Origin: Planctomycetota bacterium
GTDB taxonomy: Bacteria > Planctomycetota > B15-G4 > SIAN01
Reading direction: 5' to 3'
NCBI GenBank assembly: GCA_031409275.1
Contig: JANNXA010000055.1
Location: forward strand, 32,001 to 96,000
DNA length: 64,000 bases
In this document: piece by piece, positions 6,001 through 57,000 of the stretch
Layout of the letters: each line of letters opens with the position of its first letter
How positions within the stretch are numbered: the first letter of the stretch is position 1
Position numbers: made by a program

Positions 6001-9000
6001 CGACTGCCTCCGAGAACCGCTCCTGCTCAAGCGCCAGCCGACCATCACGCAAGCTTGCTGAACCTTCGACTGCCTGCGACTGCTGAAGACGGGCGCGGAC
6101 ATCCTCCGAAGGCCTTAACTGGTAGGCTCGCTCAAGGTGGCCGAGTGCTGCGCGATCATCGTGCAAGGCGCTGCTTTGGGTGGCGAGCGCCAGGTGCAGA
6201 TCGGCGGCGTGCTCGCGAGCTTCAAGGAGCCGTGCCTTGATCACCGCGATCGCGGCCGGGTCGTTCGTCGCCCGAACCGCCTCCTCATAGGCACCAACGG
6301 CCGCGTCCCAGTCATCTCTCGCGCGGGCCGCGTCGCCACGCTCAATTGCGGACGTACAGCCGATGCACATACCAAGGGAAACGCTCAGCATCATCCCCAA
6401 CAAGTGCTTCATTGCTCGCCCCTCAGCGCAATTGGCAGGTCCGGACATCACCGTGGCAGTACGAAGGCTACCATCGTTGTAGTTCATGGTGTACGTAACC
6501 ATTGAATCGAATCACATCCCCAATCGTGAGGAGCACTCGTTGAAACGCGAGAAGCGCCTGTCCGCATCGTCGTCCACCCTCACCCTCGGCGACCTGTCGC
6601 GCCTCCTGCGCGAGCGCGAGTCGGCGATCGCCGAGATGACCTCTCGTCGTGACGCTCTCGCGGCGGAGATCGCGCGGGTCGACGAGGAGGTCGCCGCGGC
6701 GGTGGGTGAAGTGACGATGAAGCGCGGTCGCAAACCCGGCAAACGTGGTCCAGGTCGACCGCCGAAGATCGCGACGAAGGCGAAGCGCGGTCGTCCAGCC
6801 ACGGCGGCGAAAACCATGGAAAAGGCCAAGCGCTCCGGCCGCCCCGCCGGTCCGAAGGGGCAGAGCGGCCTCCACAATGCGATCCGTGCAGCGCTGACGG
6901 GCGCGACCGATCCGGTGAAGGCGGTCAACATCGCGAAGATGGTGCTCGCCAGTGGCTACGAGACCAAGAGCAAGGTCTTTCATCTCATCATCGGGCATCG
7001 GCTCGCCGAGATGTCGGACGTGGTGAAGCCTGAGCGCGGGCTGTACGCGCTGAGGTGAATCGCCCAGGTGCCAAAAGGACAACACGTCGACCGCCGCGCA
7101 GTCGAGCATGTTCAATTCGGTTGCCGTCAACGCGTCGGCGTGCTCATCCGCCGTTGATCCGTCCGTCGAAGGTCTATCTCGACACGTCGCACTGGATTGG
7201 GCTGAGTCAGGGGCGGCATGCCGCGCCGGCGTTCGAGAGGCTCGTCGCAAATGGCGCCATCGCCCCGGTGCTCTCGTTCGCGCACATAAGTGACCTCGCT
7301 GCCAACGCCGACCGTAGCGGCCGTTCGCGCGCGGGAATGTACCTCGATCGAGTGTGCACCCTCGGAGCGGTCTTGTGGGTCCAGGGGTTGAACACGTGTG
7401 CCGCTGACGAGCTTCAAGCGTTCTACGAAACGGTGAAGCTGAAGCGACCGTTGGCGCAGCGGCGGTCTCCGTTCTCGACGATGCTGGTGGACTCTCTCGA
7501 CTTCAAGAATCACAGCAATCCGATCGACCTTGAAGCAGCGCGCCGTTTTGAGCGCAAACACTCTGTCGCCGAGATCATCGACGCCGTTGCTCAGTCCCCA
7601 GGGCGACCCGAGTACGCAGAGTTTCGGGCACAGCTTCCAGCCTCGATCACGAGAATTCGCGAGAGCCGCGGAGCTCTGAAAAGGTTCACATCGAGCGAGA
7701 TTCGGCAGTTCGTGCGCGACATCATCGCGAAGGCAAGCTTGGTTTTTCGGTCAGGCGCCGAGCAGGAGTTGTTCGTTGACGCGGTTCTTGCTCGTCAGGA
7801 CGAGCATCCTGCGCTGAACTTGCGACTGCGGTATCGACAGGGCGGCATCCTCACCGATAGCCCCGCTGCGCCGAGCGACGTCGAGGACTACGACCACCTT
7901 GCCGGATTCGCGTACTGCGACGTCGCATTCGCTGACAAGCGCACGATCGACGCCTTGCGGCGCGCAGGTTGCGACCGCCTTCCCCTGCCAAATGGCTGCT
8001 TTGATCGATGGCTCAAAGAGCGATAATCGAAGCGGCGATCGGGGACCGTCCGCAGCACGGTTGAGTCAATTGATGGCGCTTCCCAATCCCGGGGAGCACC
8101 GTGCGATGGCTGCGAATCCGCCGATCCATGAAGTTGAGATGTCGCTCGCCGACCTTGACGCCGCCCGCGCCGCCTACAACCCCCGCCTGATGCCCGAGCA
8201 CGAGGCCGCCGCCCTCAAGACCTCGATCGAACGCTTCGGACTCGTCCAACCGCTGATCTGGAACGCCCGCACCAAGCGCCTGGTCGGCGGCCACCAGCGC
8301 CTCGATGCCCTCCTCGCCATCGGTGAGACCCGTACCAAAGTGATCGTCGTCGACCTCGACGAGTGGGACGAGAAGGCGCTCAACCTCGCGCTCAACAAGG
8401 TCCACGGCGAATGGGACTGGCCAAAGCTCGACGCCCTCCTCCACGAGCTCGCCGAGCGCAATCCCGAGCTTCCTGCGATCGCCGGCTTCACCGAAGAGGA
8501 GATGCAGCAGATCACGGACGAGGGGCATCTGCTCTACCTGCGGCTGAGCGAAGCAAAGGCGGCAGCTCGCGCAGTCGAGGTGGCGAACGCCGCAGTCGTC
8601 GACCCCGCCGTCGATGACGGCGGCCCTGAGGAAGCGCCCGAGCAGCCGGTGACGCAGCTTGGCGACCTCTGGATCCTCGGCGACCACCGCCTCCTGTGCG
8701 GCGACTCGACCAAGGGGGATGACATCGCCCGCGTCCTCGCCGGCGAACAGGCCACTCTACTCGCGACCGACCCGCCTTACTGCGTCGACTACACCGGCAC
8801 CAACCGACCGAGCAGCGTCCGCGGCAAGTCGGGCGGCAAGGACTGGACGGACGTCTACCGCGAGATCGACATCCCTGACCTCGGGAGGTTCATTGACGCC
8901 TTCTTCACAGCGGTGCTGCCGCATCTGGCGGCGGACGCGCCGATCTACATCTGGCACGCGCACACCCAGCAGCCGGTGCTGCTCGCGACGTTCGCCAAGC

Positions 9001-54000: not shown

Positions 54001-57000
54001 GATCGAAGCGTTCGGACGCATAACGGCGCTGCGGGCGGCCCGCGCGATCGCGGCGCAGGCGGCAGCCGGACGGCTCCTGCCCGGACCACACCGGCTCGAG
54101 ATCCTCGACGGCGACGGCAAGTTGCTCTTCGGCGCCGACCTCACCTGACGGCGGCGAGCTACCGGCCGCCGAGCGCCCGACGCAGAATCCCGACGCGGTG
54201 CGAGAGCAGGTAGCGCGAGAAGTCCCGCTGCGTTCGACCGTGGTAGCCGCGCGTCTGAACGACCTCGTCCGCGTCATCGAACCCGAAGCCGAACATCGAG
54301 TCCGGCTTGCCCTTCGCAGTCCGGATCGACCGCAGCAGCCGGCGCATCTCGCGTTGCGTGAAGACCAGGATCTGCGGCGACCACCAGCTCCCGCGCTCCC
54401 GATGCTGGGCGACGTCAACCGAGGGGTAGAGCGCGACGAGGCAGAAGAAGTCCGCCTCCGGTGGGCAGTCGAAGGTCTTGAGCCAGGTGTAGAAACGGAA
54501 CTGCCGTAACGGCGGACTGCGTGGCGCCCTCGTCGATGGCTTCCGTGAGTACGTGCGCGACGACTTGATCTGGATCGTCTTCGCCCAGGAGTGACGGCCG
54601 CGCCGGCGCACGACGACGAGGTCCACGCCCTTCTGCTGCCGCGAAAGCGGCGTGTGGATCGAGAAGCCGAGCTTCGCCGGCAGCTCTTGAGCGAGCTGTT
54701 GGGCGACCACGAACTCGGAGTAGGGCAGCGTGAAGACTGGGTCCATGCGACGAGCCTCCGTCAAAAGGCGATCGGTCCGCCACCCGCTCCGACTGAACCC
54801 GCGCCGAGCCGCGATAGAATCGAACTGCCGCCCGTCTTTCCGGTGTGTCGGACCGCGAAACCCCTTCACGATCCGACCGGGCAGATCGGGGAGGTGGGCG
54901 GCACTCTCAGCGTGATCAGCGGGCCAACGCGCCAATGAGTTGCGGTGTCGCGTCGCTGCTGCGGACCGCTTCTGCGCTTGTCACGACGGCGACTCGGCCG
55001 ACCTCGAGCCGAACGCCGCGAACCGAGCATTCGCCTGCTCGCACCACCGGACATCGCGCGCCGTCACGCCACCTGCATCGTGCGTCGCCACCCGGGCGAT
55101 GAGCCGGCTGTAGACGTTCGTCCAGTCCGGATGGTGGTTCATCGACTCCGACACCGCCGCCATCGAGGCCATGAAGCCGAAGCACGCTGAGAAGTCGGCG
55201 AAGCGGAACCGCCGCACGAGCTTGCCCTTGGTCAACCTCCAGCCGTCCAGTCGTTTCAGAGCCGTCGTGATCTCGGCGGCGGACAGCCTCTTCAGTGACG
55301 GCATCGTTAACCTCACTCGCGCCGTCGCATTAGCGTCCGGCGGCGACACATCAGCCCTGTTCGACCTCGATCCGCCCGCGCCGCATGTGCGACACCGAGC
55401 GGCGCGGTTCAAGGCGTCGACTTGTAGGTGATTGGAAAGGCCGGTCCGGTTGCGCCGGGCGAGGTCATTAGTCCAAGGTGGGTCGCTGTCAAAGTCGCTG
55501 GAGCGACTGGTGCAGCGGGAAGAGCGAGGCCGGAAAGCAAGGGTGTGCTTTGCGCCGCGTAGGCACTCTCCATCTCCGAAAGTCGCGTCGCCATCGTGGA
55601 TGCGAGCGATGATCCAGCCAATACTGCAGGCTTGATCTGGGTGTCGTAGGCGTGTCGAAGGTCGACTGCGAGCTGAACGGCGTCGACAGAAACTGCACCA
55701 GTTGGTGTCCTGACCAGATGCATGGTCGGGGACGACTTCACGATCTCCAAGTTGCCTTTGACGACGAATGCGTGCGCGAGCCCGTGTCGCGCGACCTTGT
55801 AGAGGACAGTTCCGGCAGCCTGTCGCGCCGCGTCGTTCGGGTAAAGGTGACTGCGCCAGAACTCGTCGAATCGATCTGCGCCCCTCGTCGCATCGAATGA
55901 ACTGCTGCTGACGAGATTTCCAAGCAACTCAACGCCAGAGAAGGCAGTCATGATGAGCGGATAGCCGACTGCGCCGTCGGACTGTCCAGGCGGTGGGGAG
56001 GCAGCCTTCAGCGTTTCCAAGTCGGCAAACAAGTAGCCCTCGACGTTTCTCGTGACGAAGGCGGACAGACGAGCGATCATCGACATAGCGATACTCCTCA
56101 ACCGTTCCACCCAACGTCGTCCTTCACTTACAAGGGCGCCGGTCCGACGCCACCCGTCTACCGACCACCGTAACGGTGACATCGTCAGGTGCAATCGCAC
56201 GTTGGGCAGCGCCATCATGGACGAGTCGTTGGCGAATGAGTTGAGCGGATGACGGCTGGCATCGGTGCGTGCAAACTTGGGTAGCCCACCTCGGCGAGCA
56301 ATCGATGCACTTCTCCCTCCGTTGAAGGAGGTGCGTCAGGACCGACGATGACCTCGGCGAGTGCGATGAGACGACCGTCGACACGTACGCGCAGCGGGGC
56401 AAAGGCCCTTCCATCTTGATGACTGCGACACTGAGCACCCGCCGGAGCGAGCCCAACGATTCGCCACTCTTCCTCTTTCGAGAACTTAGGCTTCTTTGCA
56501 AAAGACTCGGCGTACGCGGCGATCTGCTGCAGTGCCACCCCAGCTATCACCAACGAGTCACCGCTATCAACATGCGGGTACGTGGTAAGGCAACGACGAC
56601 GCAGCGACATCACTTCCATGAACTTTCGCTTCACGCGATTGCGCCACGATCCAGGATCGTAGTCAACTTGCAGGAGTACACGGCCTCCGATGGGCGGCAG
56701 CTCCGCTGGCGCCGGTTCATCACGAATGACCTTGACTCCGAGGCATACGCCCCTGCCCGAGTCTCCGTAGTCGCGCCATTGACTCACCTTGTCGCGAGCT
56801 GAGCAAAAGCAAGCCAAGAATGAGTCGAATGCCTCGGACGCCTTCCATTCAGAGTACTTGTCAAGGAGCATGTCAAGGACCCGCGCGTCGTCTTCTTTCG
56901 GCGTACACTGCCGAAGTTCGGTGGCGACAGCGCGGATGACGTCTCCGGCTGAATCGAGCTCTGCCGGGTCGTCCATGTCCCGATGAATCGTCGCCCAGAA

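What a model noticed while it worked through the whole genome (the two positions that open the first line are those of the whole stretch)
6540..54148. Two diverged 13-kb elements with methylase, both terminase subunits, replication genes and a serine recombinase but no v [...]
C55:38540-51803 and C55:72686-86148 are two related elements that each carry a CcrM-like N6/N4 DNA methylase, terminase small and large subunits, a replication module (replication initiator in one, primase-polymerase in the other), DUF2924 plus a large serine recombinase and small conserved genes, yet no recognisable portal, capsid or tail gene; between them lies a complete class 1 DISARM system. I read them as phage satellites that package their own DNA with their own terminase into a helper phage capsid. 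New would be a satellite family in Planctomycetota (Saltatorellota), whose phages are almost unknown.
Evidence so far: Gene tables calls 85-86; protein pairs between the elements 51-82% id for 9 genes (MTase 82%, TerL 78%, recombinase 63%; call 86); nucleotide matches 75-85% over five blocks. PHROGs: TerS phrog_57 (E 1e-21, 2e-20), TerL phrog_15 (E 7e-211), replication initiation phrog_16167, DNA primase/polymerase phrog_19930/6088/239; no head, portal, tail or lysis family among the 22; 13 of 22 without any family; Pfam at E<=0.5 on 7 of the unknowns gave nothing over its cut-offs. DISARM DrmD, DrmMI, DrmA, DrmB, DrmC g03877-g03873.
(Added by a program. Inside this text positions count along the whole contig: contig position 32,001 is position 1 of the stretch shown here. 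"Call 12" and the like, gene names such as g00115 and contig names such as C1 are that model's own, and its searches are not shown. The text may have been shortened before it was handed on; [...] marks where a part breaks off. The agent that wrote the report below was given it as the finding of a first reader that could run no searches.)

Follow-up and report, generated by a model that had tools for sequence, protein, structure and literature searches.

The report
Motor-only phage satellites with own cos
Two related mobile elements keep an intact phage DNA-packaging motor and a lambda-type cutting site but no virus-shell genes, so they likely spread by pumping their own DNA, possibly with neighbouring anti-phage defence genes, into the empty heads of another phage.

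Summary
Confirmed and extended. Elements A and B each carry a ParB-methylase, TerS and a gpA-type TerL, a replication module and a serine recombinase. No portal, capsid or tail gene is in them or anywhere in the 93%-complete genome.

New here: the gap behind TerL holds a lambda-type cos on the opposite strand (cosQ-like heptamer, 21 nt, predicted 11-nt cohesive end, first R-like repeat at +50). The spacing matches the sequenced ends of phage RcDormio. The same site sits in a third element from IMG/VR (L008, tyrosine integrase) and behind a TerS-only copy in this genome.

Among other TerL loci, 171 of 176 have a portal next door, and all 21 cos hits there lie upstream on the gene strand. TerL is under purifying selection (dN/dS 0.16-0.20). 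The element TerLs form one clade, sister to a complete 46.5-kb phage.

Best reading: satellites that bring a whole terminase and borrow proheads. Excision, packaging and the helper are not shown, and borders are unsure. I did not find this layout in the papers searched, but this scan noted terminase-only elements on other DNA three times (unchecked).

The parts
6486..7058 (+). A: 190-aa basic protein with coiled-coil N-terminus; its homolog also precedes the MTase in the C15 copy
   Evidence: 58% to C15; no family over cut-off
7154..8026 (+). A: unknown cargo gene, absent from the C15 copy
8106..9590 (+). A: ParB-N + N6/N4 DNA methyltransferase, phage type
   Evidence: phrog_498 E 3e-104; dN/dS 0.12 vs B
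9617..10513 (+). A: TerS with Pro-rich C-terminal extension
   Evidence: phrog_57 E 1e-21; 43% to TerS of phage G421
10497..12443 (+). A: TerL, lambda gpA family; K73, D174-E175, S209-T-P and D385 align with gpA ATPase and nuclease motif positions
   Evidence: the roles of the gpA residues are recalled
12540..12663 (-). A: cosB-like repeats (CTGCAACGTGC type), first GTTGC at +50 from the predicted nick
12702..12712 (-). A: predicted 11-nt cosN, GGTGGCGTCCG
   Evidence: register taken from RcDormio genome ends
12734..12740 (-). A: cosQ-like GGGTCCT, the same heptamer as near lambda's right end
12889..14046 (+). A: 385-aa helical protein with a likely C-terminal HTH; candidate regulator
   Evidence: HTH_17 cluster 0.89, a lead only
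14146..14190 (+). A: four tandem TTGACCAA-type repeats, operator-like
14271..14606 (+). A: small excisionase-like gene (by position; the L008 gene at this place is HTH_17)
14679..16287 (+). A: replication initiator and loader-like partner
   Evidence: phrog_16167; 63-64% to C26
16493..18543 (+). A: DUF2924 + large serine recombinase (16957-18543)
18548..19803 (+). A: four small conserved genes (phrog_14161, phrog_1933, 81 aa, 107 aa)
21226..21701 (-). A: terminal pair of small genes shared with B and with a C2 remnant
21845..22425 (+). Repeat with core TTGGCTCCCC (22082-22091) mimicking the tRNA-Asn 3' end; possible A|B junction
   Evidence: also in G418, where TerS was not found
22853..26536 (-). 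C5 MTase, Vsr, HEPN and GmrSD-N defence genes
26672..40168 (-). Class 1 DISARM (drmD, MI, A, B, C); lies on the predicted packaging side of cos B
40686..42134 (+). B: ParB-MTase
42176..42865 (+). B: TerS
   Evidence: phrog_57 E 2e-20
42894..44831 (+). B: TerL, gpA family
44935..45039 (-). B: cosB-like GTTGCCAC/GTGGCAAC repeats in both orientations, first at +50
45078..45088 (-). B: predicted cosN, GGTGACGCTCG
45110..45116 (-). B: cosQ-like GGGTCCT
45322..46574 (+). B: candidate regulator (weak wHTH leads) and DUF1580 HTH; both have homologs in a tRNA-Gly island on C4
46546..49047 (+). B: primase-type replication protein
49763..51804 (+). B: DUF2924 + large serine recombinase
52139..54148 (+). 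B: small conserved genes
61702..62321 (-). B: terminal pair of small genes
62796..62870 (-). tRNA-Asn(GTT); its 3' end likely bounds the island cluster
   Evidence: same-genus G337 has the tRNA with other genes behind it

Best explanation
A and B are integrated elements that carry a complete lambda-type terminase and a predicted cos site but no shell genes, and they are likely phage satellites that would load their own DNA into a helper phage's empty heads. Shown: intact, conserved TerS and TerL; a site with cos anatomy behind TerL on the opposite strand; rep and integrase modules; no structural genes; the same layout in an independent element. Inferred steps: (1) infection by a gpA-type phage lifts repression by the post-cos regulator; (2) the recombinase excises the element and Rep or primase copies it; (3) the element's TerS binds its own GTTGC repeats; (4) its TerL cuts cosN, leaving 11-nt 5' ends, docks on the helper portal by its C-terminal tail and packs DNA leftwards through terL, terS, MTase and the cargo; (5) packing ends at a later cos, and the helper supplies tail and lysis. 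A short unit would go as a concatemer; a 40-45 kb unit would go as one copy. The TerS-only copy (C15) would borrow TerL from A, B or the helper.
For: Cos anatomy is the same in 4 of 4 copies (A, B, C15, L008): heptamer, 21 nt, 11-mer, first R at +49/+50. RcDormio (TerL 42%; 11-base 5' overhang, PMC8601537 table passage) ends in the same register. In 89 portal-bearing loci the motif hit 21 times, all upstream of TerL on its strand; the window has 2 hits against 0.06 expected. Blind scans with element-derived patterns gave 14 hits: 1 is L008, and 10 of the other 13 lie within 1.4 kb before a gpA TerL. A portal follows TerL in 171 of 176 non-element loci and in 17 of 18 regions from other genomes of the phylum, but not in A, B or L008. 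TerL dN/dS is 0.16-0.20 at dS 0.7-0.9, TerS 0.14. The element clade (98/98) is sister to complete phage G421 (98/96), which has gpW, portal, protease-capsid and sheath. Rep and integrase types differ between members while TerS-TerL-cos stays.
Against: No excision joint and no raised depth in 4 runs (contigs only). No helper gene in this genome. No long direct repeat at the 13-kb borders (best 13-15 nt). Only three TerL members have DNA in hand, two from one genome. A profile trained on 18 phage sites alone finds C15 (E 0.088) and B (E 3.5) as its only genome hits and misses A. The motif was written after I had seen both sets. G421 itself has no clear match to the motif. The post-cos proteins have no assigned fold.
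Confidence: 0.72

Rival explanations
1. Decayed prophages that lost the block from gpW to lysis.
For: MTase-TerS-TerL is the usual start of the late operon: an MTase homolog lies upstream on the same strand in 69 of 172 portal loci. Five non-element loci also lack a nearby portal. No activity was seen.
Against: Three copies 20-22% apart in TerL share the same loss and a cos moved behind TerL and flipped, which simple deletion does not give. Frames are open and under purifying selection. No fragments of structural genes remain.
Confidence: 0.1
2. In-place transducing cassettes: terminase cuts cos in the chromosome and packs flanking DNA without excision, for example the 32.4 kb between cos B and cos A, which holds DISARM.
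For: The two cos sites point the same way, 32,376 nt apart. Defence genes lie on the predicted packaging side in B (DISARM) and in L060 (type I RM). No excision joint was seen.
Against: Each copy keeps an integrase and a rep module. The predicted cohesive ends of A and B differ at 3 of 11 positions. PMC12829572 (passage) says cos phages do not do lateral transduction.
Confidence: 0.1
3. The terminase pair works mainly as anti-phage interference, occupying proheads or helper subunits, and the element spreads another way.
For: The elements sit among defence systems. A TerS-only form exists.
Against: Interference alone does not need a cos with conserved cosQ-cosN-R spacing in every copy, nor an intact nuclease site. 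Pfam named no conjugation family among the 69 window ORFs scanned.
Confidence: 0.06

Closest known systems
Gram-negative cos PICIs (EcCICFT073 type; PMC9026076 part 1 and passages, PMC10085698 passages)
   Same: Integrase, regulator, excisionase-like HTH and rep core; own cos with phage-like cosQ and cosN and a private R3-position site; dependence on a lambda-like helper.
   Different: Those PICIs redirect the helper's TerS (Rpp) and use the helper's TerL. These elements encode TerL, add a ParB-MTase, and place cos behind the terminase genes on the opposite strand.
cfPICI (PMC10085698 passages)
   Same: Satellite encoding both terminase subunits.
   Different: cfPICIs also encode portal, capsid and head-tail parts and steal only tails; none of these is here.
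VEIMEs (PMC9618062 passages)
   Same: No capsid genes; serine or tyrosine integrase; concatemers in full-size helper heads is the likely mode for short units.
   Different: Passages name TerS in some VEIMEs and treat TerL as a helper gene. Datasets S5 and S6 were not seen.
gpA-type cos phages: IMG/VR record G421 (46,530 bp, terminal repeats), G420, Rhodobacter RcC phages
   Same: TerL 61-63%, TerS 40-46%, MTase 39-60% to G421; cos register as in RcDormio.
   Different: The phages have gpW, portal, protease-capsid and tail; in the family cos lies upstream on the terminase strand. No other element gene matches G420 or G421.

Membership tests
PICI | Integrase, regulator and primase/rep module | tested here: met
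   the regulator assignment rests on position and weak HTH leads
PICI | Small terminase | tested here: met
   phrog_57
PICI | No TerL; the helper motor is used (TerL is listed as specific to cfPICI in PMC10085698) | tested here: not met
   intact TerL in A, B and L008; the C15 copy does lack it
PICI | Capsid or capsid-modification gene (optional in type B) | tested here: not met
PICI | Helper-induced excision, replication and packaging | not testable with these tools
   contig lays show no joint
cfPICI | TerS + TerL | tested here: met
cfPICI | Portal, capsid, protease and head-tail connectors | tested here: not met
Lambdoid (gpA) prophage | gpA TerL with ATPase and nuclease motifs | tested here: met
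Lambdoid (gpA) prophage | gpW-portal-capsid-tail after TerL | tested here: not met
Lambdoid (gpA) prophage | cos upstream of the terminase on the same strand | tested here: not met
   cos is downstream and inverted
Lambda-type cos | cosQ, cosN and R repeats at fixed spacing | tested here: met
Lambda-type cos | Cut by terminase | not testable with these tools
   needs an in vitro assay or virion reads
VEIME | Concatemers inside virions | not testable with these tools
   no virion long reads on hand
DISARM class 1 | drmD, drmMI, drmA, drmB, drmC in one run | tested here: met
   PADLOC
CcrM | Stand-alone GANTC methylase (definition recalled) | tested here: inconclusive
   the protein has a ParB-like N-terminus and best matches phage phrog_498; the target site was not tested

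The most novel reading that the evidence does not exclude
A satellite class of its own, the mirror image of cfPICIs: it owns the motor and the cos and takes only empty proheads and tails, with TerL C-terminal tails (which differ between A, B and L008) tuned to different helper portals. In this genome the units would be the 45.1-kb and 40.7-kb stretches between tRNA-Asn-like cores, sized to a 46.5-kb head, so that a whole DISARM island travels as one cos-to-cos genome in a stolen capsid.
Probability: 0.3. Interest if true: 0.88.

Novelty: new variant of a known kind. Interest (0 to 1): 0.74.

Why it matters
The satellites I read about either redirect the helper's terminase or build their own heads. 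An element with a whole terminase, a private cos and no shell would be a third split of labour. It would not depend on the helper's TerS specificity, only on portal fit. That makes motor-portal compatibility, a long-studied question in lambda, testable with natural variants. It would also give large defence islands such as DISARM a phage-borne route, and it means that terminase-bearing contigs filed as virus fragments (L008 is one) can be satellites.

Tried and rejected
Hidden portal or capsid: rejected by Pfam and PHROGs scans, genome searches and custom profiles on six frames. The fold model of the A post-cos protein had pLDDT 40, so no fold search was run. The atlas gave no usable hit for the whole protein.

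Exact att repeats at the 13-kb borders: best 13-15 nt, chance level. Excision joints or excess depth in four runs: none; listed joints had sides of 20-35 nt or reflected A/B/C15 similarity.

More members with DNA: the genome scan gave none above 48% among the 80 kept of 188. The metagenome scan stopped at 22 of 64 parts and gave only L060 and L061, 98-100% to L008. P0004, P0006 and TerS scans of viral contigs returned L008, G421 or distant phages. L319 looked like another element but is phage G420.

Empty site: relatives lack the left flank, and genes behind tRNA-Asn in G337 map to several contigs, so the left border is not fixed. Reading the tRNA-like repeat as a proven att: not accepted, because it also occurs in G418 around single cargo genes and IS remnants. 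Rfam found only the tRNA. No complex prediction was sent.
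Full report
Observation. The two elements are real and related. Self-blastn gives blocks of 69.5-84.8%, and nine proteins pair at 52-82%. Each runs ParB-MTase, TerS, gpA-type TerL, a gap of about 450 nt, a candidate regulator, a small HTH-type gene, a replication gene (initiator plus loader in A, primase type in B), DUF2924, a large serine recombinase and small genes. 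A class 1 DISARM and four more defence genes lie between them. Logan contigs of two runs cross the TerL-to-recombinase stretch of each element with no differences; these runs may be the source of the genome.

No structural genes. Family searches of the genome (92.9% complete) find no lambda portal, HK97 portal or gpE capsid. No structural protein of the two related phages G420 and G421 matches the genome. Profiles for portal, gpW, protease-capsid, decoration and sheath give nothing better than E 0.66 on all six frames of the window, L008, L060, C15 and C26. It has two homologs, a helical low-confidence model and an HTH-like C-terminus as a lead. In L008 and C26 unrelated proteins hold the same slot.

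The control shows that this is unusual. Of 232 loci with a TerL hit, 179 had at least 1.2 kb downstream, and 171 of these have a portal within 3 kb. The eight without are A, B, L008 and five others (many loci are near-duplicates). Of the five, L049 and L102 carry cos in the normal upstream place; I did not follow the others. In the host phylum TerL was found in 17 of 401 genomes. I fetched 18 of the 19 non-G000 places, and 17 of 18 have a portal.

The gap is a cos site. Aligning the gaps of A, B and L008 showed a conserved motif. On the minus strand it reads GGGTCCT (AGGTACT in L008), 21 nt, an 11-mer starting GGTG, a CGCG-like flank, and GTTGC repeats from +49 or +50. Lambda has the same heptamer 23 nt before its end. 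PMC9026076 (part 1 and passages) describes cosQ-cosN-cosB, the need for exact cosN-R3 spacing, and an R3 equivalent at bp 48-65 in PICIs. RcDormio has a TerL 42% identical and 11-base 5' overhangs (PMC8601537, table passage); its record ends exactly 21 nt after AGGTTCT.

Two tests of the motif. In 89 portal loci a two-part motif hit 21 times, all upstream on the TerL strand, and never in the other positions over a similar length. The window holds two hits against 0.06 expected. That motif was written after I had seen both sets, and a profile trained on phage sites alone was weak (C15 E 0.088, B E 3.5, A missed). The blind test is cleaner. Two patterns from the element sites gave 14 hits in 2.9 million viral contigs: one was L008, 10 of the other 13 lie within 1.4 kb before a gpA TerL, one is in phage G420 (9.9 kb before TerS), and two are unrelated. 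So in the elements cos has moved behind the terminase genes and flipped. By the lambda rule, packaging would enter from the cosB side, leftwards through terL, terS, the MTase and the cargo.

Recurrence. L008 and L060 (one element type; its TerL cluster has 19 members) show type I RM genes, MTase, TerS, TerL (78%), cos, an unknown gene, HTH, rep, loader, a small gene, HTH and the start of a gene that by its sequence looks like a tyrosine integrase (that last gene was not scanned). Contig C15 of this genome has the MTase (93%) and TerS, then cos directly, with no TerL. It ends in an IS end whose partner type starts C26, C4 and C18. C26 continues with regulator, rep, loader and a different serine recombinase, so C15 plus C26 is likely one TerS-only element (inferred). 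Logan proteins P0001 (TerL 89%), P0140 (TerS 81%) and P0122 (post-cos protein 73%) all list a longest contig of 18,613 nt, which suggests a fourth TerL member (DNA not seen). The clade is rare: this TerS was found in 1 of 42 genomes of the order.

Selection and origin. TerL keeps K73, D174-E175, S209-T-P and D385, aligned to the gpA motifs (roles recalled). dN/dS is 0.16-0.20 for TerL, 0.14 for the TerS core and 0.09-0.12 for the MTase, at dS 0.4-0.9 (simple counting). In a tree of 27 proteins, A, B, L008 and P0001 form a clade (98/98), sister to the TerL of G421 (98/96). G421 is a complete 46,530-bp phage with gpW, portal, protease-capsid, decoration and sheath. It shares only MTase, TerS and TerL with the elements. 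The TerS helix SHTAVQ(R/K)AI is nearly constant in the four elements, as is the GTTGC repeat core, and reads SHTAVEDAI in G421. The TerL tails, portal-binding in lambda (PMC9026076), differ among A, B and L008. The simplest history is one capture of the MTase-TerS-TerL-cos block from a G421-like phage by a PICI-like element, then exchange of rep and integrase modules.

Borders. No long repeat flanks the 13-kb cores. A and B both end in the same gene pair followed by a 300-500 nt repeat with core TTGGCTCCCC, the tRNA-Asn 3' end, at 22082 and at the tRNA itself. Further cores are at contig positions 284, about 7406 and 8959, and on C17 and C35. Taken as junctions, they give units of 45.1 kb (A with a secretion-type gene cluster) and 40.7 kb (DISARM plus B), 97% and 88% of G421. 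Against this, the repeat also occurs in G418 around single cargo genes, no joint was seen in contigs, and short core-to-core units have no integrase. I give the long-unit reading about one in three.

Literature. Seven searches were run; four of them were aimed at satellites with their own terminase. I read passages of PMC10085698, PMC9618062, PMC12822802, PMC12829572, PMC11389934, PMC4669245 and PMC8601537, and part 1 plus passages of PMC9026076; other papers were seen as listings only. None described a satellite with TerS, TerL and cos but no portal or capsid. PMC10085698 lists TerL as specific to cfPICIs. Supplements were not opened (the VEIME datasets could hold TerL cases), and most subscription journals are not searched. 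The scan's own notes report terminase-only elements in other genomes (e1-8459334, e1-9563003, e1-9535675). They are unchecked, and a look-up with B's TerL found no look-alike there.

Verdict. These are likely motor-only satellites (0.72), a new variant of the phage-satellite kind. The anatomy and conservation are shown; excision, packaging and the helper are inferred.

Noticed in passing
window 21845-22425 and 62330-62795; C55:147-628, 7169-7500, 8756-9002; C17, C35; G418 C58, C11, C4, C23: A family of 300-500 nt repeats with a tRNA-Asn 3'-end core and repeated TGTCAACC motifs. Some pairs flank one cargo gene or a toxin-antitoxin-like pair with no integrase, like a cassette array or accretion scars at tRNA-Asn. 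Found in 2 of 8 family genomes.
   Followed up: partly
L001 (C15) and L002 (C26): TerS-only relative with cos directly behind TerS, likely split by an IS; a natural reduced form.
   Followed up: yes
L003:10140-15340 (C4:20139-25335): PICI-like island at tRNA-Gly (tyrosine integrase, B-type regulator, HTH 72% to B, Prim-Pol) with no terminase or cos match found.
   Followed up: partly
G421 (L241, L325) and G420 (L319, L323): Two related IMG/VR phages with gpA terminase, a fused protease-capsid gene and Mu-like sheath genes. In G420 cos lies 9.9 kb before TerS, with opposite-strand genes between.
   Followed up: partly
window 1-5062 and C55:26700-37060: A type II secretion or pilin-like gene cluster left of A, with no long nucleotide match in seven family genomes; may be cargo.
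   Followed up: no
window 19810-19953 vs 54159-54935: A holds only the first 48 codons of a 258-aa gene that is whole in B; related bits occur on C4.
   Followed up: no
window 56110-56193 and 57243-57326; C2:800-2300: An 84-nt repeat flanks single cargo genes in B's right arm and recurs several times on C2; depth at 56677-57343 is 6-8 times the flanks in X1 and X2.
   Followed up: no
C55:7600-11000: A run of small toxin-antitoxin-like gene pairs between IS remnants (by sequence look, not scanned).
   Followed up: no
L048/L049: An integrase-like ORF directly after TerL and before the portal in a phage locus.
   Followed up: no
window 52139-52480 and 52975-53330: B has two copies of the phrog_14161-type small gene, the second frameshifted relative to A's.
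   Followed up: no
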